64,000 nucleotides of DNA, from the IMG/VR virus record IMGVR_UViG_3300021092_000008, one strand, 5' to 3'. The position numbers and the translations under genes were made by a program. Within the stretch, counting starts at the first letter, position 1, and the number at the start of each line of letters is the position of its first letter. Positions 5,767 through 45,767 of this stretch are shown in pieces. This DNA comes from a virus. The notes under the pieces are model-generated. The model was not told where the DNA came from and did not search any database. It saw only the letters and a program-made list of their open reading frames with translations.

Positions 5767-5770
5767 ACAG

Positions 5771-27903: not shown

Positions 27904-30900
27904 ATGAGCTTAAAGTTCAATCCTAACAAGCAAATTATTGAATCAACTGAGCTTAATATAAACGGTAAATCTTTCGTAACTATAAGTTCGGGAGAAGGAC
28001 TTGAAAGTAAGGAAATTATTAGAGTAGTTAGAAAAAATGGTGCTTCTAGAGTAGGTCTTAATAGGACTGGCGAAAGGATAGCAAAAGTAAATATTACTAA
28101 TCCTGGAGTTGGATATTTAATTACTCCAACTATTACAGTATCACAACCAGATATTATTAGCCGAAATTCAAAAGTAGCTGTTCTAAGTGCTGTAAGAGAT
28201 CCAGATACTGGAAGTATTATTTCAGTTATTATTACAGATCCTGGTAGAGGATATTCTCAACCACCAACAATAGTATTTGCAGAAGCTCCTTTAGGTGGAG
28301 TTACCGCTCAGGGTACGTGTGAATTAGACACTATTGACTTTGAATTAGATGTTCTTGGTGCTATTAGAACATCTGCTTCTATTGTTAGCGATAGTGCTAC
28401 GGTTACTAATTTAAACGTACAAAATTTTGTAACTCCTGGTATTTTACTTAGAGCTCCACGTCTAGGTTCATACACAAATTTAACAAATGCGAATCTACCT
28501 TTTTACGGTCAAACTGTTTATCCAGAGTTAACTGCTACTCCTCCTCTACAAGATCAAAGTAGAAGAATTGCCACCACAGAATTTGTTTACAATGTTGCCA
28601 CAAATGACGTAGGTGGTCGTATCTATGTTTCTTCTGAAATTGGTAGTGATACAAATAATGGTAGATCTCCTGCCAAACCAGTTAGGACAATCAAAAAAGC
28701 TGCTCAATTAGCAGCTGCTACTCCAAGTAGAGAAACTTTAATTGTTGCTGGTGGCGAATATTACGAAGATAACCCAATTTCAATTCCACCATTGTGTTCG
28801 GTTATTGGTGATAACTTACGTTTAGTAATCGTTAGACCAGTAAATCCAGGGCGCCATATGTTCAAGGCGTCCAACCAAAACTATATGAATGGTCTTACCT
28901 TCCGTGATGCTTTGGATTCGGAAGGTAACCCAGTATATACTCATAACTTTGCTTTTGTATTTGATGATAAGCAAAGATTTTACTTTGATGATGAGATTGG
29001 TGGAAATGATACTAGAATTGATGGGACAGAATCTTTCAGAAGAAGGTTCCCAATCGGTCACAAAATGTTCGGGCAAAAAAGTGCCATTCTTAACATTAAA
29101 GAACATACTGGTGACGTTGCTAAATTAAATGCTTTAATTACAGCAGGAACTAATATTGTTGGGCAACAAACGTCGTGTTCAGCAACTTTAACGTCTATTA
29201 TTTCTGCTACTCCTGCTCCTGATTATGTGTGGGAAGCTGAGCAAGAATATTTAGTTGGGGATATTGTAAGAGTAAGCAATTCAATTTATAAAGTAACCAC
29301 CTCAGGAAGTAGTGGAACTATTGCTTATAGTGGTGTATTAGCTACACCAAAAAATGCTGTAAACGGATCATCTGCATATATCTATTTGGGTGATAGAAGA
29401 GAAGCATCTTTAAATATTACAGTAAATGATAATTCTCCATCACAGTCTTTTGCTGATGATGAAGTTATTTCATACGTAATAAATTCTGTTACTTATCTAG
29501 CTAACGTAGCATTATTTAAATCAACTAGAGCAGAAGGTGAAGTTGTAAAATATGGCGAGACAGAATTAAGAGAATACATTGTAGAAGAAATTGATGCTAG
29601 TAAATGGTCTACTCACCCAACGCCAGGTGATAATGGTCAATTAACTCCTGGTAGTGGTGGTATAATTTTTAAATTTGCTGGTCTTCATGAATTTAAAGAA
29701 TTCGATATTGTTTTTATATCAAAACCAAATAATGCCCCAGTTGCTTTAAATTCATTCTTTGGTTTTCAAAGAGTTGATCAAGTTTTATATGATGCTGACG
29801 GTTTTTCTAGAAGAATTGTCGTTAAGAAACAAATTCAACCAAGTTACACCTCAGTATATTTACCACCAATTGGACAGTGTAAAGCAAAAGCAAAAACAAA
29901 GTATGTCGAGATTTCGCTATTAAACTCTCCATATGGATTTACTGATTCTACATTTACATCATATAGATTTATAGATGCTGTAACATTTATTAGAAATAAT
30001 AGAGATTTTATCGCTGAAGAAATTACTGGAGCAATTAGTTCTCGTTATCCAGATTTTGTCTATCCTGGTACAAATGCTAGTAGATTAAGATTTAAAGATG
30101 CTAGAAATTTAATCTACAAAAATTTAGATTTTATTGCCGATGAAGCTATTGGATGGTTGTGGAATGAATCAAACTTTGCTACTTGGGGAGCAGCAAACTT
30201 AGCATTAAAAAGTAAATGCCGTAGAGATGTCAAGATCTTTTTAAGAGGTCTGGCAAATGATTTATATGACGGATCAAATAAGAGTACAATTGTTGTAACC
30301 AGATCTTATTTTAATGCCATTACTGGAGTGCCAATTCCTAATGGTCTTGTTGGTGTTGAACCTCAATCTATTGCTGTTTTCACCAAAGCTGCTGAATATG
30401 CAAAATTAGCTGTTAACAATTCATTGCCTATAACTCCAACTTATTCGCCGTTAAAAGCATATAGAGATCTTTCAATAACTCATGATCCAACAACATACTT
30501 AACTGTTGGGGAAAATAATTGTGCTAACGTTAAAACCGCTATTACTACTTTAACAACCATTTTAACTAGTGCTATTAGTGCTGGCAATTTGACTGGATTA
30601 CCACCAGTTAGTTCTGACGATGGTGCTTCAGATGGAGAAAATCTTTGTAAGAGAGATCTTAAACATATTTTAAATGCTGTTATTGCCGATCTCCCATATG
30701 GTGGCAACGCTACTTCAATCGAAGCGGCAAAATCATATAGAAATAATTCTACTCAATCAGTTGAATATATTGATAACCAGCATAGACAATCTCGTTTTGC
30801 TTTCCAATTAGCAAGAGATTATGCTATTCTTGCCATGAGAAATTGGCAAACAAAAATTAGTCTGAAGTTTAAAAAAGATAGTGATATTGTTGAAGTTGTT

Positions 30901-33900
30901 TCAGCAGCAGGAACAATTGGTCTTGTTCCCAAAATGAGATTATATTCTTATAATAATCTAGAACAACAAGTAGAAACAGATTACTTCATTAAAGAAGTTG
31001 TATCTCCAACTCAAATAAGAATCTGGAAATTTAATACAGGTCTTTCTGGAGCAGATCACACTTTTGCTGATGGTGAAATAACAGGCTTTAAAACAAGAAA
31101 TATTAATTTAAAACTTAGTGAAGGTGAAACATCATTTACACCAATTTGGACAGATGATTTAGTTCCAAGAACTACCAACTATCCAGAATTTCCAGAATGT
31201 ACTAACGTTGCTGTTACATTAACAAACTTATTTACTTTAATTGATGATATTGTAGTAAACAATACGGATGATCGTTACTTTGACGCTACAAATCAGATAG
31301 AATTTAATAAAGATTTTATTGCTGAGGAAGTTAATGGTTGGTTAAAAGAGACATATGATGGATTTGCTTATCCATTACCAACTTTTACCAAAACAGTTAT
31401 TGATACTTCAAACGCTGATGCTTATCCATCTTTTATTCAAATAACTAATACTGCAAAAGTAAAGGTAGGGCAATTAGTAACTAGCGGTGACGCTATTCAA
31501 GATAATACATACATTACTTCTATTGATGTAGAAAATAAAATTTTATATCTAAGTAAATCATTAGAAAGTGAGATGGATAGTGTTACTATTCATCCTGATG
31601 TATATCTTGATGAGTCGATGAGATATAAGGACGCTTCTAACCTTATTCTCAAAAACAAAAACGAAATTACTGACAAAGCACTTGCTCAGATTGCTGTAGA
31701 ATTTCCAGACTTCGTTTTCCCTGGAAATTCAGTTACTGACGAATTCAGTAGATTTGCTGATGGATACCGTTTAATTACTCAAAATATCAAAGAAATTGTT
31801 GATCGTTCTTCAGCAGAAGTTGCTGTACAACATCCAGATTTTTATTTCCCTGCCGATGCTCAAACTACAAAGAGATCAAGATTTAAAGATGCTTATCGAT
31901 TAATCCAATTAAACAAACAGGAAATTATTGATACTGCTTATGCTACTATGGAAGCAAATGGTCTTCCATCCCCAGCTCCAACTGATCTAGAATCTAAGTG
32001 TAAGCGTGACATTGGTTTGTTAGTTGATTACGTATCACTTGATGTATTTGTTGGTGGCAACACCTATGCCAGAAAGTTTGTTCTAACATATTTCAATGGC
32101 AACACATTTATTCCAGATGGTTTGGAAGGAGAAGTTCCTCAGTCAATAACAGCATTCAATGCTGCTAGAGATTTGATGAAGCAAGCTATTGCTAATCAAT
32201 TAACAGTTAAAGATTTAACCATCACTCCTGGTGCTGCTACTTATGGTGGAGGTGGTGGAAACATTCCAAATGATAATGTTGGCGCTTGTGCTGATGTTCA
32301 ATCTGCTATCACATCATTAGTTGCTGTTGTAACTGACGTACTAACATCATTAAACATCAATAATCTAGTAAAAGAAAATGATGGCAACAATAACCGTTAC
32401 GAAGATTCGGCGGATTTAATTTATAATAACAAGCAAGAAATTATTGATCGTGCTGCTGCTCAGATTGCTGTGGAGTATCCAGATTTCTATTATCCTGGCG
32501 ATCCTCAAACTACATCTTCTTCAAGATTTAGAGATTCGTATCGTTTAATTCAGCAGAATAGGCAGCAAATTATTGACCGTGCTGCTGCTGAAATTGCTAT
32601 ACAATTCCCAGATTTCTATTATCCTGGAGATGCTCAAACAACTCCTACATCTAGATTTAAAGATGCTTATCGTTTAATTCAATTAAATCGAGATGAAATT
32701 ATAGCAAATGCTTATGCTGCTATTTTAATATTCAATCCAGAATTTGTAAATCCAAATCCACAAAAATGCCAGAGAGATATTGGTATTTTCGTCGATGCTT
32801 TATCTTTGGATATTTCTAATGGTGGTGGTAATACATATACTCGTAAATTTGTACTACAATATTTTAATAATGGTATTCCTATTTCCAATGGTCTTCTAGG
32901 AGAAGAAGCGGAATCAAATGTTGCTTTTAATAAAGCAAGAGACGAGATGAATAGGGCTGTTGCTAACCAGTTAACAGTTAAAGATCTTACTATTACCGCA
33001 GATCCAACACCTGGATCTGGAACTGTATCGAATACAAATCCCGACTCCTGTGCTAACGTTCAAGCAGCTATTACTAGCTTAGCACTTATTGTCACAGATA
33101 GAATTACTGCTGGTAATATAATTGGTTTACCATCTGAAACAACAGGAACGATTCCTGCTGGGGAAGCAAAGTGTAAGAGAGATTTAGCATACTTTGTTGA
33201 TTCTGTATCTCTAGATTTAACTTTAAAATCAAACAAATATTCACGTAAATTTGTACTACAATATTTTAATAATGGTATTCCTATTTCCAATGGTCTTGTA
33301 GACGAAACAGCTCAATCTGTAGTTGCTTTTAACATGGCTCGTGACATGATGAAGAATGCGATTACTAACCAGTTGTTCGCTAAAGATCTTACAATTACTC
33401 CAGACCCAGCACCTGGATCTGGAGCTGTATCAAATACAAATCCTAACTCCTGTACTAACGTAAGATCTACTATTGATACTTTATCTTCATTGATTACAGC
33501 AAGAATTACCGCAGGTAATTTAACTGGTCTTCCAGCAGAAGTAGAACCAGTTACACTCAAGGGAGAAACAAAGTGTAAGAGAGATATTGGGCAATTTGTT
33601 ATTGCTATTGAAGCTGATTTACGTCAATTAACCGATTTCAATACGAGAACATTCTTATCACGTTATTTCACTCCCGATGGTTCTTCTTGGATTAGTAATG
33701 GATTACAAAATGAGGAAGCACAATCTGTAGTTGCTTTTAACAAAGCAAGAGATGTAATTAATCAAGCGATCACCAATCAACTTTATTACAAAGACCTCAC
33801 AATTACAGCAGATCCTGTAACAGGAAGCAATGCCAATCCTTCTTCGTGTGCTGATGTTCAAACAGCAATTACAACTCTAACGACACTTGTAACAACCAGA

Positions 33901-36900
33901 ATTACTGCTGGAAACTTAGGAACAACCAAAAGTTCTTTCCTTGCTGCTGCTACTTACGATGTTTTAGTTGGAGAAATTAAGTGTAAGCGTGATGTTAAGA
34001 AGTTTGTAGAAGCAGTTTCTTTAGATGTATTTACTAAAGGTAACAAATATTCAAGAGAATTTGTAAATCAATATTTCACAAATGTTTCAAGTCCTCTTTC
34101 AAATGGATTAGTAAACGAAGAAACTCAATCTATCACAGCATTCAACATGGCTCGTGATATGATGAGGAAAGCAGTAACTAATCAATTAACAATTAAGGAT
34201 TTAACTATTACTGCAGGACCAGCCCAATATAACGGAAGTGGTGGCAATATCCCAAATCTGCCTTCAGGAACTGCTGCAGCATGTGTTGATGTTCAAGCAG
34301 GAATCGCATCGTTAAGTAAGATTATTACTGATGTCATTACTGCTGGATCTTTAACTGGATTAGATGCTTTCCCAGAAACACAAGGAGTGTTTGGAATTGG
34401 TGAAACAAAATGTCGTAGAGACATTGGTATCATTGTTGATGCTGTAGCAAAAGACGTTGCTGACGGTAGTAACTGGAGATCAGTAACTGCTGCTAGATCT
34501 TATTTCCAAGAAGGGCAACCAATTTCAAATGGTCTGGTTGATGAAGAAGCAGCATCTATTTTTGCTTTTAATAAAGCAAGAGATCTCATGATTCTTGCCA
34601 TAAGAAACCAATTGAACTATCGTGATTTATCAATTACTGCTGATCCAGAAAGATTAACAAACTTTGATAAATTTGTCTGCTCTGATGTTGCTTCAGGAAT
34701 TACTACTTTAGTTTCTATTATTACTACAACTATTAATGATGGTGATTTAGATTCTTTATCTGGAATAACTGTAAATAGAGGAACATATTCATTTAACGAA
34801 ATTAAGTGTAAGAGAGATATTAAGCTTCTTATTGATGCTGTCATTAATGATATAACTTTAAATGATAGCAACGCAAATAGTATTAACTATGCCAATTTAT
34901 ACAAGGAGCAAAACGGTAACATCAAATTAATCGATAATCAACTAATTCAATCTGTTGCCGCTTTCAGAAAAGCAAGAGATCTATGTATCCTTGCTATGAG
35001 AAATTGGATTGAATTCCCAGGAAAACAATATTATCAGAAGGAGTATACAGATCTTGATTATGTAAGAGATGAGTTCTTAATTATTGATACTGAAACTCCT
35101 TATTGCCAGAATGTTGCCACTGCTATTACAAATAGATTTGATTTAATCATTAATATTTTAACTGGTGATGCTGAAAATTCAAATCTAGATACAGCTAATC
35201 AAATTGCTATTAATGAAAACTTTATTATTAACGAAGCATTAGCATCAGGAGAAGTTTCTTTCCCTGGTGTTTCAATTCCAAACATTACTAAATGTAAGAG
35301 AGATTTAAGAATTATCCTTCGCTCCGTACAACGTGATATAATTCTTGGTGGTACTGTTGGTATTGTTCGTTCAGCAGATTCTTATTTAACTGGAGCAACT
35401 TTAGATGTAGGTTTTGTTGGCGATCAATTAGGTAAGACTTTACACATTTACGATTATGCCAAGCATATGGCAATTGCTGCCACAAGAAATTGGAATTTTG
35501 AAATTAGAGACTGTACGACAGTAAGCGGAAATAATGTAGTAACAGTTCCTAACACAAATGGCGTTGTTCTTGGAATGAGAGTATCTGCTAATGAGTTTAG
35601 ATACACTGATCTTACCCCAGATTCATATGCTTATGTAATTGGAATTAATAGAGGAAGCAATACAATAACTTTAGGTAACTCTAAGTCATTGACAGCTGCT
35701 GCTTTCCCAGCAAATGCTTCAACAACAACAGCAAAACTATTCTTCTCATTTAGTGAAGTAGGTGCTCCATGGTTTGATGCTGCTAATAACATCACTGCTA
35801 ATAAGACATTTATTAAGCAGGAAGCAGTTGGATACATTGAAAATATCTATCCATATCTAACCACACTTAATCCTTCAACTTCATTAGCTAATCTTGTTTC
35901 TCAGTATGATAATGCTACATGCCAAAGAGATATTGGTTATGTATTAGATGCTCTCATTTTTGATTTAAGATATGGCGGCAACTCAGAAACTATTAAAGCT
36001 GCCGAATTATATAGAAATGCTTCTGGTCACCTTGACTATATTGGTAATCAACTAGTTCAAAGTATAGAAACTTTTGAAAAGGTAAAAGATCTAGCAGTCC
36101 TTGCTATGAGAAATTGGAAGACTAGTGCTACTACAACGTATACTAAACAATTTGCCACAGCAGATTATGTCGTAAACAATGATATATTACCAGATCCTGC
36201 TGGATATCCACAGTGTGCTTTCGTGGAAGCATCAATAGAATCTTTATTCCAGCAGTTTGTTGACATCATCACAAATGATTCTGGAGGAACTAAAATTGAT
36301 GCTGCTAGACTTATTGCTAGAAACTTTAAATATATCGCTGAGGAAGCAGTAGGTGCTGCTAACGAGGAGTATCCTCTTGTAACAATTCCAAATGAAGCAA
36401 AATGTTTGAGAGACACTCAATTAATTATGACCGCTTGGATTAAAGATTTAATTACTGGAGGCAACTCTGCTACAATTCAAGCAACTCAATCTTATTTAAC
36501 AAATACTGGCGCTGTTACTTTTATTCAGGATGAACTACAAAAGAGTAGATATGCTTATGAGTACGCTAAAAATCTAGTTAAATTAGCAGTTACAAATAAT
36601 TTACCTGATCCAGGAGAATATACAGACGAAGATCCATTTACTGATTTATCTATTCTCCCAGATCCTCTTACTAATGACAATACAGATCCAACGTCATGTG
36701 CTTCAGTACAAAGCACCATAGAAACTTTATGGAGTATTCTTGATAGTACTTTAGCTCAATCTGGAGCTCCATTACCAGCAGCTACTTATGGCACTCAATA
36801 CAATCCTCGTAAATACTTCCCAGCAAACTTCCCTGGTATTTTTGCTGGTGATTATTTCCAAGGTTTACAAAGAGCGTCTACGGATGAATTCATTACAGAA

Positions 36901-39900
36901 GACACATCCTATCCAGAATGTGCCAATATTATTACTACATTAATTAATCTATTTGCCATCTTAGATGCTGTGCTAAATGGTGGAGATTTACCAGAGGCTA
37001 CTAATGATAACGTTGCTTTAGTTGTTAGAAATCGAGGAACTCTTTACAACCCAACAATTGTACAAGGTTCTGGTACAATGATTGATGCTGGTAACAGACC
37101 AGTAATTCGTGGTAGAATGATTAATGCCAATGACATTATTGAAACTTCTCCATATATTCAAAACTGTTCGATTATTTCATTCTTAGGTGGTGGTGGTTGT
37201 GAAGTTGATGGTTCTAAGATTAAACAAATTAACGTTCCTCGTCCAGGTTTGAAAGAAGATGGATCATCAAAGCTTGCCCCACAAGGTAAATCGATGGTTG
37301 CTAACGCCTTCACTATTATTTCACAGGGAGGCACTGGATACTTAGTTAAGAATGATGGTTACACTCAGTTGGTATCTGTATTCTGTATCTTCTGCCAAGA
37401 TGGTATTCTTGCCGAATCTGGTGGATATGCTTCTGTTACCAACTCTGCTTCAAACTTTGGTACATATGCTCTACGTGCTACTGGATATAGAGAAGAACCA
37501 TATGTATTTGATATTGCTACCATTAGCGAAATTGGTGTTACGGGCGCTGGTAAAACAATATTCCGTGTAGATGGATTAGGAAGAAGACCACAAGAAAACT
37601 TTGTTGTTAAAATTGATGGATATGAAAATGTCGTATCAGACATTGAATTTTTTATAACTGTAGTATCTCAAACAACAGTTGGTGGAACTGGAGAAGTTAG
37701 TTCTAGAATTGAGTTAAATGATGCTCTTTTAATAAAAAATAAAGAATCTGGTCAGATAGTCAATCTCAACACTTCAGAATTAATTAATAAAACAATTAGA
37801 TTATTCAGACCATCTATCATTAACTCTTCTGGTCATTCGTTTGAATATATTGGTTCTGGTATTAATTACTATGCTCTACCAGAAAATGGTGGACAGAAGA
37901 TTGAAGATAACGAGCAAGTATCACAAAGTTACGGTAGAGTATATGCTTCTGGTACTGATGAGGCAGGTGACTTCAAGGTAGGTCGTACCGTGAAGATGGA
38001 AAACAGAACTGGTAACATTTACTTTACTGGTCAAGTATCTATCTCGGAAATTGAATTCTTACGTATTCGTGGTGGTGATCTTGTTGTTACTGGATTTGAT
38101 GCTTCGCCAACATTAGGTGGTGCTGCTGCTACAAACCAAAAACTACCAACACAGAAAGCTGTTAGAGACTTTGTAACTAATAACCTAGGTCCATATTTTG
38201 GTAAACCATATTCAACAAATCCAGTTCCAAATGCTCTTGTAGAACTAGGAAATGATGGTAAGATTAATCTAGATCAAATTCCACCTATCAGACCATTTAA
38301 AGTTTATACAGTAGAAAACACTTCCCAAAGACTTGCTTTAGAAGGATTAAATTCTGGTGATATTGCTGTACAAGTTACAAGATTGAATGATACTATCAGT
38401 GCTTCTGATGTTGATGTAGCAAATAATAAAATCTTTACTCCTAAAACTGGATTCTCTAGCGGTCAAATTCTTTCAATTGTATCAAGTCCAGTTAACCCAA
38501 TTCAAACAACTGATGGTCCTATAGTTGCTGGAGAGTCTTATTATCTTATTGTTCTTCCAAATAATTTTGTTCAGTTAGCAGCATCTCCAGAAAATGTTAT
38601 TGACGAAATTCCTATAACAATTACTGACGCTGGATCTGGCAATACAGAAGTTCAAATCGCTACTGGTACAGTTTCATATATTTTAAATAATGATGTAGAT
38701 ACTCAATTTTTAGCTTATCCTCCAAATATATCCACAACATTTACAACTGGATCATTAGTTATTGGTTCGGCAACAGGTGCTATTGGTTCAGTAACTAGTA
38801 CTTTATATGGTACTGTATTCTCAATTTCAGTTTCTGGCGGTGGTAATGTTTATTTAAATGAAACTCCATCTGTAGTTATCTCTGCTCCGAATCAAGGTGA
38901 TGGTGTTCAAGCAACAGCAACTCCTGTTGTTGTTGGTAGTAGAATTTCGGCAGTTGAAATTACCAATAAAGGAAGTGGATATGATACCACACCAACTGTA
39001 TCTATTTCTATAGGAGAAGTTGCTTGGTCAGCAAATCAAACATATCTTGTCGATGATTTAATTTTTGTTGGAACAAATCTTTATAAAGTAACAACAGAGG
39101 GAACTTCAGGAACATCTGCTTTCTCTGGTCAATCTGGCATTCCTCAACCAGCAGATGGTGGTACATGTTTCTATGTTTACGTCGGGGAAAGAGCTCAATT
39201 AACATCTTTTGTTGAAAGTAGAGTTTCTATTAATATTGAAAATTCTGTTAAATTTACTGATGTTGACAATATTAATAGTCATAATGCTACTCCTGTCACA
39301 GTAAACATATCTAGAGTTGTTAATACATCAGGATCAAATGAATTTAACTGGGTTCCACTGACATCAGCTTCTATTGATGCTGCTTCTATTACTACTGGTA
39401 CTATTTCTACTTCTAGATTAGCATTACCTAATACTGGTTCAGCAAACTCGTTTACATTCTTAAGGGGCGATCAATCATTTAAACCAGTTGTACAAGGTGT
39501 TAAATTACCAGAATCTAAATTCTTAGTAAAAACTGTTCTATTCTCACCTGGAAGTGGTGATCCTTTAATCCCGCCAGTAAACTACATCACTATTCCATTA
39601 ACGAGTTTAATACAAACTGGACAGAGAGTTATTGGTAATGGTGTGTCAGCAGATACAATTGTTCTTGAAATATTAACTGTTGGTGGTAATACTAGAGTTG
39701 TATTAAGTTCTACGCTAATTAATGATGTCCCTGTTGGTACAGTATTTACCATTATAAGAACAGAAACTGCATTACAATTTGATTCTAACTTTACCAAAGG
39801 AGCATATGCTGCTGGCATCTTTATAGAAAGTCCAGGTAACTATTACACTTCAACTATTACCAATGGTAATATAGGAGAAAATACAATTAGCGTAGTTGAC

Positions 39901-42900
39901 GTTACCAAAGCTGTTATTGGGCAAAAGGTAACTGCTGAGGGAGTTGCTACCAATGCTATTATCACCAGCATTCAGCTTGATAGTGGAACTTCGGGAACAA
40001 TTACTTTATCAGCAAATAATACTGCTAATATAGTAAACAAAGAAGTTCAGTTTGGAGTTCCATTCTCAACTGGTACGTTCAATAACGTAGAACTATTCGG
40101 TTCAAATACAGGTTCTGGTGCTAAAGCAACATTTACTGTTCAAAATGGTTTAATTACTAATGCCCTTATAACTGATGGTGGTAATGGATATACAGAAGAT
40201 TTTGATATCGATCCCATTCCAGGTGCTTTAGGATTAGGAACTGGCGCTAAACTTACTGTTCTTGCTTCAACTCAGCAAACATACTTCTCTAGCATCGAAA
40301 TGGATGTCAAGAGAGTTACAAATCAAACAACATCATTAGATCCTTTTGGTACAGTTGGTGTTGCTAGATTCCAGAAATCACAATATACATATGGTCCTGA
40401 TGGAGCAGTTACTTTAAAAACTGGTCCAGAATCAGGATTAGATTCTGACTTACTTGATGGTAAGCAAGGTGTATTCTATCTTGATGCTTCAAACTTAGAA
40501 TCTGGCACTCTAAGACCAGATAGATTATCTGGTACATATTCAATTGATATTACTGGCAAATCTGGTACTACAACTAGAGTAGAAACTATAACAGATTCCA
40601 TCAACGCTGTACCAGCTCCTTCTGCTTACGGATCAGGTTTAAGTTTGGCAGCAAGAATATCTTCTAATTTTAGATCTTCTCTAGTTGATAGAACCTTAGA
40701 AGATGAAGGAGAGCGTGTAACATTACTGACTATTAGACCATCTGGTATTGGTACAGATGCTAGTAATGGTGGTTTAAAACAGTTAGCATTTACTGATGGT
40801 ACTCTTAACGTTGGTACAGGTGGTGGTGGTGCTAGTTCTTCTACAACTCTTGATGATGTTGTTCCAAATATGTACATTCGTGGTACAGGAAACATTATCC
40901 CAACTGATCCAACAAACGCTTTCTCACCTTGGTATAAGGTATGGACTTCTGGTAATGATGGATTTGGATCTGGATTAGATGCTGATAAACTACAAGCAAA
41001 AGATGCCAAGTTCTATACAAATGCTCTAAACCTTGATGGTGGCAGCATCAATGATTCCAGATTACAACCAATAATGTCTTCTAAGAAATTCTTAGAATCA
41101 TTAACTACTGTTAGATATATTGACAAAGCACACTATGAAATTTATTTCTCTGGAAGATTAAATAACGGAGATCTTAACTTCGTAATTGGCACCACTTACT
41201 CATTATACAATGATATTCTCCAAGTAGTTGGTCAAGCAACATTAAAGCTGATAGAGCAAAAATTCCCTGTAGAAGAGGTTAAAACAGAACTTAATTACGT
41301 AATTCTTACAATTCAATTAGATAGTGGTTCTATTGGTTCTGCTACAAAAATTGGATTTACTGGTTTTGAACAAACATGGAATTCACTAAGACTTTCGCCA
41401 TTTGCCACCTATACTTCTTCTACATTACAAGATGATGGTACTGGAGCTAGATTAATCTTAGGAAGAAATGATGGTAACAATGTTGCCAACAACACTCCTT
41501 CTAGTGGTGCTATCATTGATTTCCATTCAAGCGGAGCATTCAATGAATATGATGTAAGATTCCAAGTCACTGGGGGTACTACTAATAGTGGTAATGGTGC
41601 TTTAAATATTACTGGTAATGGATTTACTTATAACAGCAATACTGTCTGGCACTCTGGAAATGACACTGATATTTCAGGTCTGAATGCCAACTTCTTACAA
41701 GGTATTACAAAATCTCAGGTAATGAGATCTGATGAGAATACAGCAACGGCTGGATCATTAACCGTAACTGGAGTTACAACATTATCAAGTTTCGTAACTA
41801 TTAATGACGCTGCTCAATTAGCAGATAACACAATTATTGATCCTGATATTTATTCTAACAAAGTTATTGCTGGTAATTTAGCAGATGGTGGAGGATTCTC
41901 TGTTATTGGTATTGGCGGTAATGCTGGAGTAGGTAAATCTTGGGCAATAGGTCATAATGGAACTTCATTGTACTTTGGTATTGGCGATGGAAGTGCTGCT
42001 GATACATTAACAACATGGGCACAAGTAGATGCCGACAGAACAATTAGATTCTTTGCTAAAAATAATAGCTCAATATTCTTCAGTTCTGGTACTAATGATT
42101 ATAGAATTTGGAATGAAAATAATGATGGTTCTGGTTCTGGTTTAGATGCCGATCTCTTAGATGATAGAGATTGGAACTCTAGAGATAAATCAATTCTCAG
42201 AACTTCTGGATCTCATATTGCTGGTGGTTTATACATTAATGATGGCACTAAATATCAAACTTCAAACTTTGGTTTCTTAATTAGGCATTCTGATGCCAAT
42301 GGTGTAAGTGCTGGTGCTGGTGGTAGACTAGATTTTGTATTTGGAGACGATGCTTCTAAAGCAGCAGATCAAACTGTATCAACTCTTCGTACATTCTCAT
42401 TTGATAAATCTGGTCAATTAATTCTTCCAGCGCCTACAGGTACTTCTCCATTATCTGTAACTTCTACGACTAAAGTAACAAATTTAAATGTTGATTTACT
42501 AGATGATCAGGATGGTAGTTATTATACAAACGTCAACAATGCTAATGCTGGTACTTTAGCTGCTGTTAGAGGTGGTACAGGAATCAATGCTTATGCTATT
42601 GGTGATATGTTGTATGCTTCAGCAACAACCCCAACACTAGCAAAATTAAATATTGGTACTACCAACCAAATTCTTACAGTAAATTCTGACGCCACTGCTC
42701 CTAAATGGACCTCACCATCAGCGATTAATATTGGATCAGCAACTAAAATTGCTGTTACATCAGATGCTGCTACATCAACTAATTTGGTGGTTGGATTCTT
42801 CTCATCTACAGAAACCCCAGCAGATATTAAATATAGCTCAGACTCTTCACTTGGATTATTCTTTAATCCATCTGTAGGAAGATTAACAGCTAAAACATTC

Positions 42901-45018
42901 AATGGAGCTTTAAGTGGAAATGCTACAAGTGCTACTAACGTTTCTGCTGGTGGTGCTGCTGGATCTCTACTTTATCAATCAGGAACAAATACAACAACAG
43001 TTTTAGGAATTGGTACTTCTGGTCAGGTATTGGTAGTAGGTGGGTCTTCGGCTCCTATTTGGACAGCACAAATTAACATTACTGCTGGTAATATTAATGG
43101 TGGAGTTCGAGGGCAAGTATTATATCAATCTGGCGTTGGAGCAACAGCAAAATTACCTGTAGGTGCTGCTGGATCTTTACTCCAGACTAATGGAACTAAT
43201 CAAAATCCTTCATGGGTGGCACAAAATACAATCACTGCTGGCAACATACATGCTGGTGTTGCTGGCGATCTCTTATATCAATCTGCTGCCTCAACAACTT
43301 CTAAGTTAACCATTGGATCTGCTGGTCAGGTATTGGTAGTAAATACCAATGCTACGGCTCCTTCTTGGACAGCACAAAGCAATATTACTGCTGGTAATAT
43401 TGCTAGCGTTGATGGTGATACTGGATCTTTACTATATCAATCTGCCGTAAATGTTACGTCCAAGTTCTCACAAGGAACAGCTGGTCAAGTATTAAGTTCA
43501 CAAGGAACTGGAGCAGCTCCTCTTTGGATCAACCAATCTTCTATTACTGCTGGTAACATACATGCTGGTGTACGTGGCGATCTCTTATATCAATCTAACG
43601 TTGGAACAACTGTTAAATTAAATATTGGATCTGCTGGTCAGGTATTGGTAGTAAATGCTGGTGCTACGGCTCCTTCTTGGGTAGCACAAAATACAATCAC
43701 TGCTGGTAATGTGGATGGTGGAGCTATTGGTGAAGTTCTATATCAATCTGCTGCTGGAGCAACAGCTAAATTGCCAGTATCAAATTCTGGATTTATTTTA
43801 TCAACTCAAGGAGCAAATAACCCACCTGCTTGGATTAATCCAAATACAATTACTGCTGGTAATATTAGTGGTGGTGCTGCTGGAGAAATTCTATATCAAT
43901 CTGGTACTGGAGCAACAGCAAAACTTCCTGTGGCAGCAGCATCTGCTGGACAAGTTCTTGCTCTAAGTTCCTCCAAATTACCAGTTTATATTAATCAATC
44001 TTCAATTGTTGCTGGCAACATTACCAGCATCGCCGCCGATACCAATAAAATTTTGTATCAGTCTGCCGTTAATACTACATCTAAATTACCAACAGGCGAG
44101 GCTGGTCAAATATTAAGGTCTGGTGGAAGCCTTGCTGTTCCTGGTTGGGTTGCCCAATCAACTCTTACTGTTGGAGCTGCTGCTAACGTATCAGGTGGTG
44201 GTGCTGGACAAATACATTACCAAAGCGGTCCTGGAGCAACGGCATTCTTAGCGGCAGGACAGAATACACAGGTTCTGATTGGTGGAGCAGCGGCGCCTGC
44301 TTGGTCTAATATTTCTGGTCTTTCTGTTGCCTCTGCTGCAAATATTACTGCTGGTGTTGCTGGCGATCTCTTATATCAATCTGCTGCCTCAACAACTGTT
44401 AAATTAAACATTGGATCTGCTGGTCAGGTATTAGTTGTTAACACTGGCGCTAGTGCCCCAACGTGGGTTAACCCATCAACATTAACCGTAGGTAATGCTA
44501 CCACAGCAGTCAATACCACTGCTGGTATGCCTAATAATACTGACACTGTTTTAAATGCTCGTATTATTAGAAACAACAATAGCACCAGCGCCAATGACGG
44601 TATGTATATTGGTTATGGTAATACTAATAGTGGTCTTACTAGATTGTATGGCGGTGGTTCTACTTCAAATAGGTTAGAAATCAATTCCGCAGGTAATGTT
44701 ACTGTAACTGGTACAGTAACAGCAAGTTCTGATATCAGACTTAAGAAAAATATCAAAACAATTGAAAATGCTTTAGATAAAGTTCTAAATCTTAGAGGTG
44801 TAGAATTTGATCGAATTGATATTGATACTCACCAGATTGGTTTAATTGCTCAAGAGGTTGAGGAAGTTATTCCAGAAGTTATATTTGAAAATGAAGATGG
44901 CATGAAGACTGTTGCTTATGCTAATATGGTATCAGTCCTCATTGAGGCAATCAAAGAACAACAAATTCAAATAAATATGCTACAAGAGGAAATTAAATCT
45001 CTCAAAGACAAACCATAA
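27904..45018 (+). CDS. Giant tail fibre (5704 aa): split beta-helix, array of 12 phycobiliprotein-like helical domains, repeated distal shaft, C-terminal peptidase S74 intramolecular chaperone
   Basis: RIATTEFV and RIYVS...GSDTNNG...RTIKKA beta-helix start. Twelve C-x-R-D repeats. GLDADLLD fibre motifs. Eleven LYQS-type repeats. C-terminal SDIRLKKNI...GLIAQEVEEVIPEV...YANMVSVLIEAIKE. Confidence 0.85.
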   Translation: MSLKFNPNKQIIESTELNINGKSFVTISSGEGLESKEIIRVVRKNGASRVGLNRTGERIAKVNITNPGVGYLITPTITVSQPDIISRNSKVAVLSAVRDPDTGSIISVIITDPGRGYSQPPTIVFAEAPLGGVTAQGTCELDTIDFELDVLGAIRTSASIVSDSATVTNLNVQNFVTPGILLRAPRLGSYTNLTNANLPFYGQTVYPELTATPPLQDQSRRIATTEFVYNVATNDVGGRIYVSSEIGSDTNNGRSPAKPVRTIKKAAQLAAATPSRETLIVAGGEYYEDNPISIPPLCSVIGDNLRLVIVRPVNPGRHMFKASNQNYMNGLTFRDALDSEGNPVYTHNFAFVFDDKQRFYFDDEIGGNDTRIDGTESFRRRFPIGHKMFGQKSAILNIKEHTGDVAKLNALITAGTNIVGQQTSCSATLTSIISATPAPDYVWEAEQEYLVGDIVRVSNSIYKVTTSGSSGTIAYSGVLATPKNAVNGSSAYIYLGDRREASLNITVNDNSPSQSFADDEVISYVINSVTYLANVALFKSTRAEGEVVKYGETELREYIVEEIDASKWSTHPTPGDNGQLTPGSGGIIFKFAGLHEFKEFDIVFISKPNNAPVALNSFFGFQRVDQVLYDADGFSRRIVVKKQIQPSYTSVYLPPIGQCKAKAKTKYVEISLLNSPYGFTDSTFTSYRFIDAVTFIRNNRDFIAEEITGAISSRYPDFVYPGTNASRLRFKDARNLIYKNLDFIADEAIGWLWNESNFATWGAANLALKSKCRRDVKIFLRGLANDLYDGSNKSTIVVTRSYFNAITGVPIPNGLVGVEPQSIAVFTKAAEYAKLAVNNSLPITPTYSPLKAYRDLSITHDPTTYLTVGENNCANVKTAITTLTTILTSAISAGNLTGLPPVSSDDGASDGENLCKRDLKHILNAVIADLPYGGNATSIEAAKSYRNNSTQSVEYIDNQHRQSRFAFQLARDYAILAMRNWQTKISLKFKKDSDIVEVVSAAGTIGLVPKMRLYSYNNLEQQVETDYFIKEVVSPTQIRIWKFNTGLSGADHTFADGEITGFKTRNINLKLSEGETSFTPIWTDDLVPRTTNYPEFPECTNVAVTLTNLFTLIDDIVVNNTDDRYFDATNQIEFNKDFIAEEVNGWLKETYDGFAYPLPTFTKTVIDTSNADAYPSFIQITNTAKVKVGQLVTSGDAIQDNTYITSIDVENKILYLSKSLESEMDSVTIHPDVYLDESMRYKDASNLILKNKNEITDKALAQIAVEFPDFVFPGNSVTDEFSRFADGYRLITQNIKEIVDRSSAEVAVQHPDFYFPADAQTTKRSRFKDAYRLIQLNKQEIIDTAYATMEANGLPSPAPTDLESKCKRDIGLLVDYVSLDVFVGGNTYARKFVLTYFNGNTFIPDGLEGEVPQSITAFNAARDLMKQAIANQLTVKDLTITPGAATYGGGGGNIPNDNVGACADVQSAITSLVAVVTDVLTSLNINNLVKENDGNNNRYEDSADLIYNNKQEIIDRAAAQIAVEYPDFYYPGDPQTTSSSRFRDSYRLIQQNRQQIIDRAAAEIAIQFPDFYYPGDAQTTPTSRFKDAYRLIQLNRDEIIANAYAAILIFNPEFVNPNPQKCQRDIGIFVDALSLDISNGGGNTYTRKFVLQYFNNGIPISNGLLGEEAESNVAFNKARDEMNRAVANQLTVKDLTITADPTPGSGTVSNTNPDSCANVQAAITSLALIVTDRITAGNIIGLPSETTGTIPAGEAKCKRDLAYFVDSVSLDLTLKSNKYSRKFVLQYFNNGIPISNGLVDETAQSVVAFNMARDMMKNAITNQLFAKDLTITPDPAPGSGAVSNTNPNSCTNVRSTIDTLSSLITARITAGNLTGLPAEVEPVTLKGETKCKRDIGQFVIAIEADLRQLTDFNTRTFLSRYFTPDGSSWISNGLQNEEAQSVVAFNKARDVINQAITNQLYYKDLTITADPVTGSNANPSSCADVQTAITTLTTLVTTRITAGNLGTTKSSFLAAATYDVLVGEIKCKRDVKKFVEAVSLDVFTKGNKYSREFVNQYFTNVSSPLSNGLVNEETQSITAFNMARDMMRKAVTNQLTIKDLTITAGPAQYNGSGGNIPNLPSGTAAACVDVQAGIASLSKIITDVITAGSLTGLDAFPETQGVFGIGETKCRRDIGIIVDAVAKDVADGSNWRSVTAARSYFQEGQPISNGLVDEEAASIFAFNKARDLMILAIRNQLNYRDLSITADPERLTNFDKFVCSDVASGITTLVSIITTTINDGDLDSLSGITVNRGTYSFNEIKCKRDIKLLIDAVINDITLNDSNANSINYANLYKEQNGNIKLIDNQLIQSVAAFRKARDLCILAMRNWIEFPGKQYYQKEYTDLDYVRDEFLIIDTETPYCQNVATAITNRFDLIINILTGDAENSNLDTANQIAINENFIINEALASGEVSFPGVSIPNITKCKRDLRIILRSVQRDIILGGTVGIVRSADSYLTGATLDVGFVGDQLGKTLHIYDYAKHMAIAATRNWNFEIRDCTTVSGNNVVTVPNTNGVVLGMRVSANEFRYTDLTPDSYAYVIGINRGSNTITLGNSKSLTAAAFPANASTTTAKLFFSFSEVGAPWFDAANNITANKTFIKQEAVGYIENIYPYLTTLNPSTSLANLVSQYDNATCQRDIGYVLDALIFDLRYGGNSETIKAAELYRNASGHLDYIGNQLVQSIETFEKVKDLAVLAMRNWKTSATTTYTKQFATADYVVNNDILPDPAGYPQCAFVEASIESLFQQFVDIITNDSGGTKIDAARLIARNFKYIAEEAVGAANEEYPLVTIPNEAKCLRDTQLIMTAWIKDLITGGNSATIQATQSYLTNTGAVTFIQDELQKSRYAYEYAKNLVKLAVTNNLPDPGEYTDEDPFTDLSILPDPLTNDNTDPTSCASVQSTIETLWSILDSTLAQSGAPLPAATYGTQYNPRKYFPANFPGIFAGDYFQGLQRASTDEFITEDTSYPECANIITTLINLFAILDAVLNGGDLPEATNDNVALVVRNRGTLYNPTIVQGSGTMIDAGNRPVIRGRMINANDIIETSPYIQNCSIISFLGGGGCEVDGSKIKQINVPRPGLKEDGSSKLAPQGKSMVANAFTIISQGGTGYLVKNDGYTQLVSVFCIFCQDGILAESGGYASVTNSASNFGTYALRATGYREEPYVFDIATISEIGVTGAGKTIFRVDGLGRRPQENFVVKIDGYENVVSDIEFFITVVSQTTVGGTGEVSSRIELNDALLIKNKESGQIVNLNTSELINKTIRLFRPSIINSSGHSFEYIGSGINYYALPENGGQKIEDNEQVSQSYGRVYASGTDEAGDFKVGRTVKMENRTGNIYFTGQVSISEIEFLRIRGGDLVVTGFDASPTLGGAAATNQKLPTQKAVRDFVTNNLGPYFGKPYSTNPVPNALVELGNDGKINLDQIPPIRPFKVYTVENTSQRLALEGLNSGDIAVQVTRLNDTISASDVDVANNKIFTPKTGFSSGQILSIVSSPVNPIQTTDGPIVAGESYYLIVLPNNFVQLAASPENVIDEIPITITDAGSGNTEVQIATGTVSYILNNDVDTQFLAYPPNISTTFTTGSLVIGSATGAIGSVTSTLYGTVFSISVSGGGNVYLNETPSVVISAPNQGDGVQATATPVVVGSRISAVEITNKGSGYDTTPTVSISIGEVAWSANQTYLVDDLIFVGTNLYKVTTEGTSGTSAFSGQSGIPQPADGGTCFYVYVGERAQLTSFVESRVSINIENSVKFTDVDNINSHNATPVTVNISRVVNTSGSNEFNWVPLTSASIDAASITTGTISTSRLALPNTGSANSFTFLRGDQSFKPVVQGVKLPESKFLVKTVLFSPGSGDPLIPPVNYITIPLTSLIQTGQRVIGNGVSADTIVLEILTVGGNTRVVLSSTLINDVPVGTVFTIIRTETALQFDSNFTKGAYAAGIFIESPGNYYTSTITNGNIGENTISVVDVTKAVIGQKVTAEGVATNAIITSIQLDSGTSGTITLSANNTANIVNKEVQFGVPFSTGTFNNVELFGSNTGSGAKATFTVQNGLITNALITDGGNGYTEDFDIDPIPGALGLGTGAKLTVLASTQQTYFSSIEMDVKRVTNQTTSLDPFGTVGVARFQKSQYTYGPDGAVTLKTGPESGLDSDLLDGKQGVFYLDASNLESGTLRPDRLSGTYSIDITGKSGTTTRVETITDSINAVPAPSAYGSGLSLAARISSNFRSSLVDRTLEDEGERVTLLTIRPSGIGTDASNGGLKQLAFTDGTLNVGTGGGGASSSTTLDDVVPNMYIRGTGNIIPTDPTNAFSPWYKVWTSGNDGFGSGLDADKLQAKDAKFYTNALNLDGGSINDSRLQPIMSSKKFLESLTTVRYIDKAHYEIYFSGRLNNGDLNFVIGTTYSLYNDILQVVGQATLKLIEQKFPVEEVKTELNYVILTIQLDSGSIGSATKIGFTGFEQTWNSLRLSPFATYTSSTLQDDGTGARLILGRNDGNNVANNTPSSGAIIDFHSSGAFNEYDVRFQVTGGTTNSGNGALNITGNGFTYNSNTVWHSGNDTDISGLNANFLQGITKSQVMRSDENTATAGSLTVTGVTTLSSFVTINDAAQLADNTIIDPDIYSNKVIAGNLADGGGFSVIGIGGNAGVGKSWAIGHNGTSLYFGIGDGSAADTLTTWAQVDADRTIRFFAKNNSSIFFSSGTNDYRIWNENNDGSGSGLDADLLDDRDWNSRDKSILRTSGSHIAGGLYINDGTKYQTSNFGFLIRHSDANGVSAGAGGRLDFVFGDDASKAADQTVSTLRTFSFDKSGQLILPAPTGTSPLSVTSTTKVTNLNVDLLDDQDGSYYTNVNNANAGTLAAVRGGTGINAYAIGDMLYASATTPTLAKLNIGTTNQILTVNSDATAPKWTSPSAINIGSATKIAVTSDAATSTNLVVGFFSSTETPADIKYSSDSSLGLFFNPSVGRLTAKTFNGALSGNATSATNVSAGGAAGSLLYQSGTNTTTVLGIGTSGQVLVVGGSSAPIWTAQINITAGNINGGVRGQVLYQSGVGATAKLPVGAAGSLLQTNGTNQNPSWVAQNTITAGNIHAGVAGDLLYQSAASTTSKLTIGSAGQVLVVNTNATAPSWTAQSNITAGNIASVDGDTGSLLYQSAVNVTSKFSQGTAGQVLSSQGTGAAPLWINQSSITAGNIHAGVRGDLLYQSNVGTTVKLNIGSAGQVLVVNAGATAPSWVAQNTITAGNVDGGAIGEVLYQSAAGATAKLPVSNSGFILSTQGANNPPAWINPNTITAGNISGGAAGEILYQSGTGATAKLPVAAASAGQVLALSSSKLPVYINQSSIVAGNITSIAADTNKILYQSAVNTTSKLPTGEAGQILRSGGSLAVPGWVAQSTLTVGAAANVSGGGAGQIHYQSGPGATAFLAAGQNTQVLIGGAAAPAWSNISGLSVASAANITAGVAGDLLYQSAASTTVKLNIGSAGQVLVVNTGASAPTWVNPSTLTVGNATTAVNTTAGMPNNTDTVLNARIIRNNNSTSANDGMYIGYGNTNSGLTRLYGGGSTSNRLEINSAGNVTVTGTVTASSDIRLKKNIKTIENALDKVLNLRGVEFDRIDIDTHQIGLIAQEVEEVIPEVIFENEDGMKTVAYANMVSVLIEAIKEQQIQINMLQEEIKSLKDKP
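29965..36984 (+). repeat. Array of 12 nested globin/phycobiliprotein-like helical domains
   Basis: 12 N-segments ([RK][FY]xDAxxLIxxNxxxIxxxA...P), 12 C-x-R-D-[ILVT] motifs and 12 downstream C-xx-[VI]-xxx-[IL]-xx-L motifs, counted directly in the translation. Confidence 0.75.
42595..44490 (+). repeat. Eleven distal fibre repeats of about 50 aa
   Basis: Consensus GxLLYQSxxxxTxKLxIGxAGQVLxxxxxxxAPxWxxQxxITAGNI. Ten copies have YQS and one has YAS. Confidence 0.85.
44728..45018 (+). other. Peptidase S74 intramolecular chaperone / autocleavage domain of the giant fibre
   Basis: S-D-x-R-L-K at 44728-44745, GLIAQEV motif and terminal coiled coil. Implies a homotrimeric fibre. Confidence 0.9.
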
Positions 45019-45021: not shown

Positions 45022-45069
45022 ATTATGTTACAATATCCTTCGTACAGTATTATTAAAGAGGAACTTATT

Positions 45070-45282
45070 ATGTCTACTGACACTACCGCTCTTAGAGAAA
45101 ATTTTGAGAATCAACTCAAAAATATTAATGAGCAAATTACCAAACTTGAAGAAGATCTATCAAAAGCAAGAGAGTATAGAACCAAACTACAAGGGGGTCT
45201 AGAAACTCTCCAAATTTTAGATCCTAAGGAAGAAGTTTCAGCAGAAGAAACTCCCGTTTCCGAAACTGAAGTTGTAGAATGA
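45070..45282 (+). CDS. Small coiled-coil protein with acidic tail (possible fibre assembly factor)
   Basis: ATG at 45070 follows GAGGAAC, so it is preferred over the track start at 45025. Heptad segment LRENFENQLKNINEQITKLEEDL...KLQGGLETL. Confidence 0.7.
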   Translation: MSTDTTALRENFENQLKNINEQITKLEEDLSKAREYRTKLQGGLETLQILDPKEEVSAEETPVSETEVVE

Positions 45283-45289: not shown

Positions 45290-45310
45290 ACCCCCTTCGG
45301 GGGGTTTTTT
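45290..45310 (+). terminator. Rho-independent terminator with cUUCGg tetraloop
   Basis: ACCCCC-TTCG-GGGGGT followed by a T-tract. Confidence 0.9.
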
Positions 45311-45323
45311 ATTGTGAGGTGAT

Positions 45324-45767
45324 ATGAAATTTGAATCTATTATAGGGCAATATTTAAATAAAAAACAAGCGTTTTCTTATCCATCACAATTCGCAATGAT
45401 CCGTATTGTGTATAAAGATTTGGGCGATAATAAATTGATGTCTCAAAATTGGTATGAGTATCAATATCCTAGGGGTAGACCTTATAGACAAGAGTATCAT
45501 AAGTATGAATATATTACAGAAAAAGAAGTAATATTTCAATCATATAATATGGATTGGGAATTGAATTGTAATTATCAATTTAATTATGTGAACGGATTTT
45601 GGATTGCCATGCCTTGTGGGGAATGTATCGTAAAAGGAATTAGAATTAACAGTGAGGTTAAATTTAATGATTCTCAGTACATAGCAAAAGATACTGGTTA
45701 TGATGCTGACGGTAGATTAGTTTTTGGCAAGTCTACTGGCGGACCCTTCATTTTTGATAGGGTATAA
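45324..45767 (+). CDS. cpeT: T-type phycobiliprotein lyase (CpcT/CpeT family), short phage form
   Basis: GQYLNKKQAFSYPSQFAMIRI, QNWYEY...PYRQ and DTGYDADGRLVFG...GPFIFDR match the N..QA...P..F..I / PYRQ / D.G.D..G..V.G...PF.F pattern of CpcT/CpeT. GAGGTG RBS. Located just upstream of gp13 as in other cyanomyoviruses. Confidence 0.85.
   Translation: MKFESIIGQYLNKKQAFSYPSQFAMIRIVYKDLGDNKLMSQNWYEYQYPRGRPYRQEYHKYEYITEKEVIFQSYNMDWELNCNYQFNYVNGFWIAMPCGECIVKGIRINSEVKFNDSQYIAKDTGYDADGRLVFGKSTGGPFIFDRV

What the first reader, a model, noticed from the sequence alone, without database searches (positions are those of the whole stretch)
29965..36984. Nested (Russian-doll) architecture: the 12 helical domains form a balanced bracket structure
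Seen: N is the helix-A/B segment (29965, 30088, 31273, 31621, 31750, 31879, 32395, 32524, 32653, 35182, 35770, 36292) and C is the CxRD plus second-Cys segment. The order is N1 N2 C1 C2 | N3 N4 N5 N6 C3 N7 N8 N9 C4 C5 C6 C7 C8 C9 | N10 C10a N11 C11 N12 C12 C10b. The counts balance exactly if whole domains are inserted into loops of other domains. Sequence subtypes support the pairing independently. N1/N3 (NxDFIAEE) pair with C2/C9 (IDNQxxQS...LAMRNW). N6/N9 (RFKDAYRLIQLN) pair with C3/C4 (GGNTYxRKFVL). N5/N8 (DxYRLIxQN...AExAxQ) pair with C7/C5 (KxNKYSRxFV). N4/N7 (AQIAVExPDF) pair with C8/C6 (ETKCxRDIG). Inference: the array grew by recursive domain-in-domain insertion, up to six levels deep. 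This would give a branched, out-and-back arm rather than beads on a string, and would hide the domains from linear HMM searches.
Basis: partly seen in the sequence, partly recalled or inferred. Interest (0 to 1): 0.85.

Follow-up and report, generated by a model that had tools for sequence, protein, structure and literature searches.

The report
Nested pigment-protein domains in cyanophage fibre
A giant tail-fibre protein of a virus of cyanobacteria contains 12 copies of the host's light-harvesting pigment-protein fold inserted one inside another six deep, and its gene lies beside a pigment-attaching enzyme gene, so it can now be tested whether the virus particle carries pigment and uses it to attach to cells only in light.

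Summary
The bracket pattern is real. Among 117 full-length relatives (3-15 domains, 25 different strings), 113 have equal counts in valid bracket order; shuffles give about 23. Close relatives lack exactly one N unit plus C5, which are not adjacent. AlphaFold of N7-C6 (pLDDT 91, pTM 0.91) shows N9+C4 as a phycobiliprotein-beta globin core (rmsd about 2 A); weak globin matches span N7+C6. The domains keep both bilin sites (Cys84-Arg-Asp; Cys155 with Asp39). A CpeT bilin-lyase gene lies 305 bp downstream, and a second cpeT sits beside a second such fibre in this genome. Corrections: mid-level subtype pairings are only partly resolved; most gains add N and C apart, so growth looks like paired recombination more than whole-domain insertion; nesting does not hide the domains from Pfam. 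Six-level nesting has a precedent (Si3 of cyanobacterial RpoC2). Pigment binding is inferred, not shown. This scan noted the same architecture and the cpeT idea on other phage genomes.

The parts
27904..45018 (+). Giant tail-fibre gene, 5,704 aa (PHROG 5342/4527; same position and family as S-PM2 p091)
28609..28953 (+). First half of a conserved host module (probably a beta-helix; not folded here) into which the whole array is inserted
   Evidence: the two halves are 20-81 aa apart in P0043/77/83 and P0009 but 2,726 aa apart here
29965..30087 (+). N1 (helices A/B of domain 1; partner C2)
30088..30585 (+). Domain 2, contiguous N2+C1, in the B-E loop of domain 1
30637..31266 (+). C2 (helices E-H of domain 1) with a roughly 100-aa beta-rich-looking insert at about 30871-31173 in the G-H loop
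   Evidence: sequence
31273..31620 (+). N3 (partner C9) followed by a roughly 85-aa small module (31360-31620) weakly repeated later in the fibre
31621..31878 (+). N4 and N5, 43 aa each (partners C8 and C7)
31879..32349 (+). Domain 6, contiguous N6+C3, first child of domain 5
32395..32652 (+). N7 and N8 (partners C6 and C5); domain 7 is the second child of domain 5
32653..33114 (+). Domain 9, contiguous N9+C4, innermost (depth 6); phycobiliprotein-beta globin core
   Evidence: model residues 86-241 on phycocyanin beta 32-172, rmsd 1.9-2.1 A over 131-132 residues, Z about 16
33163..35169 (+). Return run C5 (33163-33516), C6 (33565-33912), C7 (33973-34347), C8 (34402-34743), C9 (34798-35169), each CxRD to second-Cys helix
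35182..35493 (+). N10 + C10a (helices A-G of domain 10)
35494..35763 (+). Small beta-strand module in the G-H loop of domain 10
   Evidence: strands in a low-confidence model
35767..36279 (+). Domain 11, contiguous N11+C11, in the G-H loop of domain 10
36292..36762 (+). Domain 12, contiguous N12+C12, in the G-H loop of domain 10
36916..36984 (+). C10b, helix H with the second Cys of domain 10
   Evidence: its packing on domain 10 is not shown (inconclusive)
37129..37503 (+). Second half of the split host module
44728..44880 (+). Peptidase S74 intramolecular chaperone (suggests a trimeric fibre)
   Evidence: E 1.7e-15
45025..45282 (+). Small ORF (up to 85 aa) between fibre and cpeT
45290..45313 (+). 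Terminator-like hairpin with T run just before cpeT
45324..45767 (+). CpeT/CpcT-family (T-type) bilin lyase gene, 147 aa
   Evidence: PF06206 36.1 bits, cut-off 21; CpcT 4o4o E 0.0024, phage 5hi8 E 0.025

Best explanation
The region is a self-nested array of 12 phycobiliprotein-beta-like globin domains in a cyanophage tail fibre. Each domain is N (helices A, B) + E-F-G + H. A child domain plugs into the parent's B-E loop (or the G-H loop in domain 10), so the chain runs out through the N halves and returns through the C halves. The tree is D1[D2], D3[D4[D5[D6, D7[D8[D9]]]]], D10[D11, D12], and the whole array sits inside a split host module. SHOWN by computation: counts, order, fold of the inner domain, coupled gain and loss (about 0.9). 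INFERRED: levels are gained or lost mostly by recombination between offset copies with one crossover in the N run and one in the C run, which keeps the balance and makes hybrid units (about 0.6). INFERRED: during assembly the domains receive host bilins by thioether bonds, at the Cys84-type site (host S/U lyase or spontaneously) and at the Cys155-type site (the phage CpeT next door), giving a pigmented fibre arm (about 0.6). SPECULATIVE: the pigment makes the fibre light-responsive and gates adsorption (about 0.3); light screening or plain stabilisation are the alternatives.
For: Balance in 113/117 homologues against 23 by chance. P0003 and P0006 lack one N unit and exactly C5, about 175 aa apart. 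With stand-alone domains as references, the outermost N points to the last C in 67 cases, to the first in 3, elsewhere in 7. AlphaFold2 on a natural, unspliced alignment: pLDDT 90.6, pTM 0.91. N9+C4 matches phycocyanin/phycoerythrin beta, Z 16-17.7. Two globins align over model residues 1-508 and 1-510, i.e. N7+C6; none over the crossed ranges 1-376 or 43-508 (Z only 5.8-6.9). Bilin residues: Cys in 444/448 E segments, CxRD in 410/448, helix-A Asp in 387/411; this Asp aligns with beta Asp39 and the second Cys, weakly, with beta Cys153; second Cys in 466/643 nested-family domains against 8/99 in the tandem family. T-type lyases serve Cys-beta155 (PMC2327270). Both cpeT genes of this genome flank a domain-bearing fibre. 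cpeT lies within 2 kb upstream of the fibre in 37 of 80 viral loci and just downstream in four close relatives. In 21 isolates: both 15, cpeT only 0, domains only 2, neither 4. P-HM1 (domains, cpeT) does not adsorb in the dark, P-SSM2 (neither) does, though less (PMC6628666).
Against: No coordinates were available, so N8-C5 and N7-C6 contacts were not seen directly. Middle-level pairing is weakly resolved by sequence (rank 30/2,880; inner references 36 LIFO, 25 other, 2 FIFO); the extra C is most often one position inward of the extra N's partner. The domain-10 model is poor (pLDDT 54). Nothing here shows bound pigment. In nine isolates cpeT is tens of kb from the domain-bearing gene, and the P-HM1 fibre genes next to cpeT have no such domain. 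Co-occurrence follows clades, and 7 of the 21 genomes were chosen for having the domains. A terminator separates fibre and cpeT. No ho1, pcyA or pebS in the 81% complete genome. The light contrast is two phages, and P-SSM2 adsorption is still raised by light.
Confidence: 0.55

Rival explanations
1. Same nested architecture, but no pigment: the domains are a stiff structural spacer or host-binding arm borrowed from phycobiliproteins; the cysteines form disulfides or are relics, and cpeT acts on host phycobiliproteins and sits here by synteny.
For: No direct evidence of bilin. cpeT is far from the domain-bearing gene in nine isolates. Helices X and Y are missing. The related tandem family lacks the second Cys and the Asp yet is widespread. 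The literature treats phage cpeT as a host-directed gene (PMC10452541; PMC13041748).
Against: Arg and Asp of CxRD and the helix-A Asp are kept together with both Cys, which a disulfide would not need. In phycobiliprotein beta chains the two sites lie far apart (own knowledge). Two cpeT genes flank two fibres in two different arrangements in one genome. The role of phage cpeT is called unresolved (PMC3037559).
Confidence: 0.3
2. N and C halves do complement one-to-one, but not in strict bracket order: crossed pairing among the near-identical middle levels, or swapping between the three chains of a trimeric fibre.
For: The S74 chaperone suggests a trimer. 29 other orders fit the similarity matrices better in the middle block. 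Offsets of one level in indel comparisons. Only a monomer was modelled.
Against: No invalid order is needed in 113/117 proteins. The model places N9 with C4 and suggests N7 with C6. Linkers are short and constant (N to N 43 aa, H to next E about 40 aa). Hybrid units explain the offsets.
Confidence: 0.12
3. The N runs and C runs are independent tandem repeats with folds of their own, and the balance is coincidence.
For: Both runs look like ordinary tandem repeats, and gains are often separate segments.
Against: Counts match across 25 architectures. N+C together make one globin fold. The tandem family shows the intact N-E-H unit repeated.
Confidence: 0.02

Closest known systems
Si3 insertion of cyanobacterial RNA polymerase RpoC2 (PMC13114784)
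   Same: Recursive nesting of homologous domains, six levels; cited there as the complex extreme among 48,551 insertion events.
   Different: Si3 is built from small hybrid-motif domains in a conserved enzyme (8-10 domains). Here the unit is a roughly 160-aa helical globin, uses two loops, branches, and varies from 3 to 15 copies in 25 arrangements. 'Globin' and 'phycobili' do not occur in that survey.
Phycobiliprotein beta subunits (CpcB, CpeB; Pfam PF00502)
   Same: Globin core A-B-E-F-G-H at about 2 A rmsd; Cys84-x-Arg-Asp; Cys153/155 and Asp39 equivalents.
   Different: No helices X/Y; 13-19% identity in the structural match; domains are split and fused inside a 5,704-aa virion protein; pigment not shown.
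Cyanomyophage giant tail fibres, PHROG 5342 and 4527 (S-PM2 p091; S-CAM1, Syn1, S-RSM4 'short tail fibre')
   Same: Same family, position and flanking modules; S-PM2 p091 itself reads NEH NNNN EH EH EH EH.
   Different: Annotated only as tail fibre; I found no paper describing the fold or the nesting. This copy has 12 domains and a branch.
Tandem family of giant cyanophage virion proteins (P0043, P0077, P0083; probably PHROG 701/18802-related)
   Same: Same domain with CxRD (90/100).
   Different: About 35 copies that look like beads on a string (N halves detected only in part), mostly without the second Cys and the helix-A Asp.
T-type bilin lyases CpcT/CpeT and phage CpeT (PDB 4o4o, 5hi8)
   Same: Window ORF 45324-45767 passes the Pfam cut-off.
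   Different: Short (147 aa) phage type; substrate unknown; proposed here to be the phage's own fibre.

Membership tests
Phycobiliprotein (PF00502) | Globin fold with helices A, B, E, F, G, H | tested here: met
   Z 16-17.7, rmsd 1.9-2.1 A over 131-139 residues; best phytochrome-unrelated globin Z about 10
Phycobiliprotein (PF00502) | Sequence homology above the Pfam cut-off | tested here: met
   87.2 bits for the protein (cut-off 22.2), no single stretch significant; 34/82 single domains match at E<0.01; profile hits 90 PDB sequences, the 60 shown all phycobiliproteins or derivatives
Phycobiliprotein (PF00502) | Cys84 site C-x-R-D | tested here: met
   12/12 here; 410/448 in relatives
Phycobiliprotein beta subunit | Cys153/155 before helix H and Asp39 in helix A | tested here: met
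   Asp aligned; Cys aligned only in a sub-threshold stretch there, but the structural match runs to chain residue 172; 12/12 second Cys here
Light-harvesting phycobiliprotein subunit | Helices X and Y for alpha-beta assembly; free subunit of a phycobilisome | tested here: not met
   low-rmsd matches start at chain residue 31-33; N units are 43 aa apart; domains are internal to a virion protein
Light-harvesting phycobiliprotein subunit | Covalently bound bilin | not testable with these tools
   needs spectroscopy or mass spectrometry
Recursive self-nested domain array (Si3-like architecture) | Homologous domains inserted in each other's loops, several levels | tested here: met
   outer contacts seen only indirectly
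Si3 of RpoC2 | Hybrid-motif beta domains in RNA polymerase | tested here: not met
   all-helical globin domains in a phage fibre
Nesting in the G-H loop (domain 10) | C10b completes domain 10 after domains 11 and 12 | tested here: inconclusive
   sequence parse and spacing fit; model pLDDT 54 recovers domains 11 and 12 as separate globins but does not show C10b on domain 10
T4-like cyanomyophage tail fibre (PHROG 5342) | Profile match and position in the tail gene cluster | tested here: met
   capsid protein 88% identical to a 196,280-bp record, the length of S-PM2
T4-like cyanomyophage tail fibre (PHROG 5342) | Presence in the virion | not testable with these tools
   inferred from annotation of relatives
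T-type bilin lyase (PF06206) | Profile match | tested here: met
T-type bilin lyase (PF06206) | Attaches bilin to a Cys155-type site | not testable with these tools
   enzyme assay needed

The most novel reading that the evidence does not exclude
Many cyanomyophage virions carry a branched, rigid arm of self-nested phycobiliprotein domains loaded with bilin by the phage's own CpeT. It acts as a light-responsive part of the tail that permits adsorption only in daylight, which would make it a pigment-based photoreceptor on a virus particle and give phage cpeT its true substrate.
Probability: 0.25. Interest if true: 0.95.

Novelty: new variant of a known kind. Interest (0 to 1): 0.78.

Why it matters
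Structure and evolution: six-level self-nesting was the cited extreme of domain insertion (Si3). This is a second, all-helical case that branches and is actively gaining and losing levels, so the rules of balanced growth can be read from natural variants. Cyanophage biology: two open questions become directly testable with cultured phages such as S-PM2, S-CAM1 or Syn1. One is what phage cpeT is for ('unresolved', PMC3037559). [quoted passage not shown] If the fibre is pigmented, cpeT would be a virion-maturation gene rather than a host-metabolism gene.

Tried and rejected
Foldseek against PDB gave no hit at E<=0.001 for the 515-aa model; phycoerythrins appeared at E 0.05-0.17 with probability 1.0. 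AlphaFold of the domain 10-12 block with only six sequences was too poor to test C10b. A whole-unit paired-indel test was mixed: exact LIFO match is the modal outcome in 6 of 13 architecture pairs and a one-position offset in 7, with small margins; I take it as evidence for coupled change at one level, not for exact ancestry of pairs. In the NENENNNEEE group LIFO did not beat random. A capsid-based sample of viral contigs was too fragmentary for a co-occurrence test. Gasper et al. 2017 on phage CpeT is not held, so I cite nothing from it. Literature searches for phycobiliprotein-like or nested domains in phage fibres found nothing relevant; subscription journals are not covered. No ho1, pcyA/pebS or psbA/D in the incomplete own genome. 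Cellular genomes gave one weak hit. I did not build N and C trees; I used similarity-matrix tests instead. I sent no complex-prediction job, because split halves and enzyme-substrate pairs would not have discriminated. My note of 38 loci with cpeT counted S-CAM1; the figure for the 80 viral loci is 37.
Full report
Setting. The finding lies in ORF 27904-45018 (+, 5,704 aa), among T4-like baseplate, neck, sheath and capsid genes. It matches tail-fibre PHROGs 5342 and 4527, ends in an S74 chaperone and sits where S-PM2 p091 sits. The region has relatives in 358 phage records, all cyanophages or one unassigned marine virus. The genome is an 81% complete, 156.6-kb virus record.

Observation. Independent HMMs for the three parts give NNEHEH NNNNEH NNNEHEHEHEHEHEH NE NEH NEH H, which parses under D = N D* E D* H. 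The tree is D1[D2], D3[D4[D5[D6, D7[D8[D9]]]]], D10[D11, D12], six deep.

Chance. Of 117 full-length homologues (three tandem-type proteins set aside), 113 have equal N and E counts in valid bracket order. They hold 3 to 15 domains in 25 strings. Shuffled counts match in 23 cases on average (max 37), and 17 valid orders are expected by chance. The four exceptions are off by one unit; I did not check whether these are detection misses.

What the domain is. Pfam Phycobilisome scores E 1.4e-24 for the protein. A profile of contiguous domains finds phycocyanin and phycoerythrin chains in the PDB. AlphaFold2 of N7-C6 on 50 natural, unspliced rows gave pLDDT 90.6 and pTM 0.91. Model residues 86-241 (N9+C4) superpose on phycocyanin beta 32-172 at about 2 A, Z about 16, and on phycoerythrin beta up to Z 17.7. 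So N is helices A-B, the CxRD segment is E-F-G, and the second Cys starts helix H. Helices X and Y are absent. The insertion sites are the B-E loop and, for domain 10, the G-H loop.

Which N goes with which C. The model pairs N9 with C4, which excludes first-with-first pairing in that fragment. In the wide search two globins align from model residue 1 to 508-510 (1moh_A: 135 of 142 residues, rmsd 4.1, Z 5.8; 4uii_B: Z 6.9), as expected for N7+C6; no row shows the crossed ranges. This is weak and indirect. In the window, N-N and C-C similarities correlate at r 0.79 under LIFO, 0.42 under first-with-first, P 0.015 against order-valid random pairings; LIFO wins in 81 of 91 proteins. Stand-alone domains, whose pairing is unambiguous, point the outermost N to the last C in 67 of 77 cases. 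Relatives at about 72-80% identity lack one N unit and exactly C5, 175 aa apart. Middle levels are not resolved by sequence alone: LIFO ranks 30th of 2,880 orders. The G-H nesting of domain 10 rests on the parse and on canonical spacing; its model was poor.

How it grew (inference). When two relatives differ by one domain, the extra N and extra C are apart in 9 of 13 architecture pairs and at the same or neighbouring level; adjacent additions are mostly stand-alone domains. N8 resembles inner-type N9/N6 at its 5' end (0.71-0.73 DNA identity) and outer-type N7 at its 3' end (0.80); C5 is mostly C4-like. A double crossover between offset copies, one in the N run and one in the C run, adds a level in one step, keeps the balance and makes such hybrids. 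Two separate duplications under selection for balance cannot be excluded. The whole array is itself inserted in a module whose halves are 20-81 aa apart in other proteins and 2,726 aa apart here (lead from note e1-5631973).

Function. Both bilin sites of a beta subunit are conserved: CxRD in 410 of 448 segments, the helix-A Asp in 387 of 411, the second Cys in 72% of nested-family domains against 8% of the tandem family in a test that did not use the H model. T-type lyases attach bilin at Cys-beta155 (PMC2327270). A CpeT-family gene lies at 45324-45767, 305 bp after the fibre, behind a small ORF and a terminator. The genome has a second cpeT about 1 kb before a second fibre with five such domains. 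cpeT is within 2 kb upstream of the fibre in 37 of 80 viral loci, just downstream in four close relatives, and near such a fibre in S-PM2, S-CAM1 and S-WAM2. Among 21 isolates none has cpeT without the domains; among the 13 chosen blind, 8 have both, 4 neither and 1 domains only. Against this: in nine isolates the two genes are far apart, the pattern follows clades, and no pigment has been observed. P-HM1, with both, does not adsorb in the dark, whereas P-SSM2, with neither, does (PMC6628666); this is suggestive only.

Comparison and verdict. Six-level recursive nesting is known from Si3 of cyanobacterial RpoC2 (PMC13114784), so the architecture is a new variant of a known kind: helical, branched, two insertion loops, highly variable. 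The domains are phycobiliprotein homologues but not light-harvesting subunits, since X/Y are missing. I found no paper describing them in phage fibres. Earlier AI notes of this scan report the same nesting and the cpeT idea on other genomes; I count them as leads, not support. Odds: nesting 0.9, pigmented fibre 0.6, light-gated adsorption through it 0.25. Interest 0.78.

Noticed in passing
window:45324-45767: CpeT/CpcT-family lyase gene inside the late structural cluster, between the fibre and the neck genes, behind a terminator-like hairpin.
   Followed up: yes
G000:C1:2189-2674 and 3671-14659 (outside the window): Second cpeT and a second fibre with five domains, string NNNEHEHEH NEH NEH.
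   Followed up: yes
window:28609-28953 and 37129-37503: Two halves of one conserved module, contiguous in window ORF 16011-27281 and in tandem-family proteins, enclose the whole array: a further level of nesting.
   Followed up: partly
window:30871-31173, 31360-31620, 35494-35763: Small beta-rich-looking modules inserted in the same loops as the globin children; the second is weakly repeated near aa 3981-4027.
   Followed up: partly
P0043, P0077, P0083: A second family of 6,200-6,600-aa proteins with 34-36 tandem copies of the domain, keeping CxRD but mostly lacking the second Cys.
   Followed up: partly
P0009; P0010 and L016/L059: Most elaborate relatives: 15 domains with repeated branching (P0009) and an unbranched seven-deep nest.
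   Followed up: no
L009:7238-12236 and 12165 onward; L007:6497-12500: The fibre reading frame is split or short in these loci while near-identical loci are intact; assembly error or frameshift.
   Followed up: no
L186 (Saprospiraceae MAG contig, 155 kb): Only hit in cellular genomes: three weak domains in a long ORF; possibly a phage contig in the bin.
   Followed up: partly
window:40600-44700: Long run of Gly-rich repeats (motif G.LLYQS) before the S74 chaperone.
   Followed up: no
window:51893-52357: An earlier scan note (e1-5631980) reports a self-nested beta-domain insertion in the tail sheath gene; not checked.
   Followed up: no
AlphaFold model residues 59-85 (N8 helix B): In many structural matches helices X/Y of phycobiliproteins align with the parent's helix B, hinting that the parent packs where X/Y would; rmsd rises to 3-4 A in most.
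   Followed up: no
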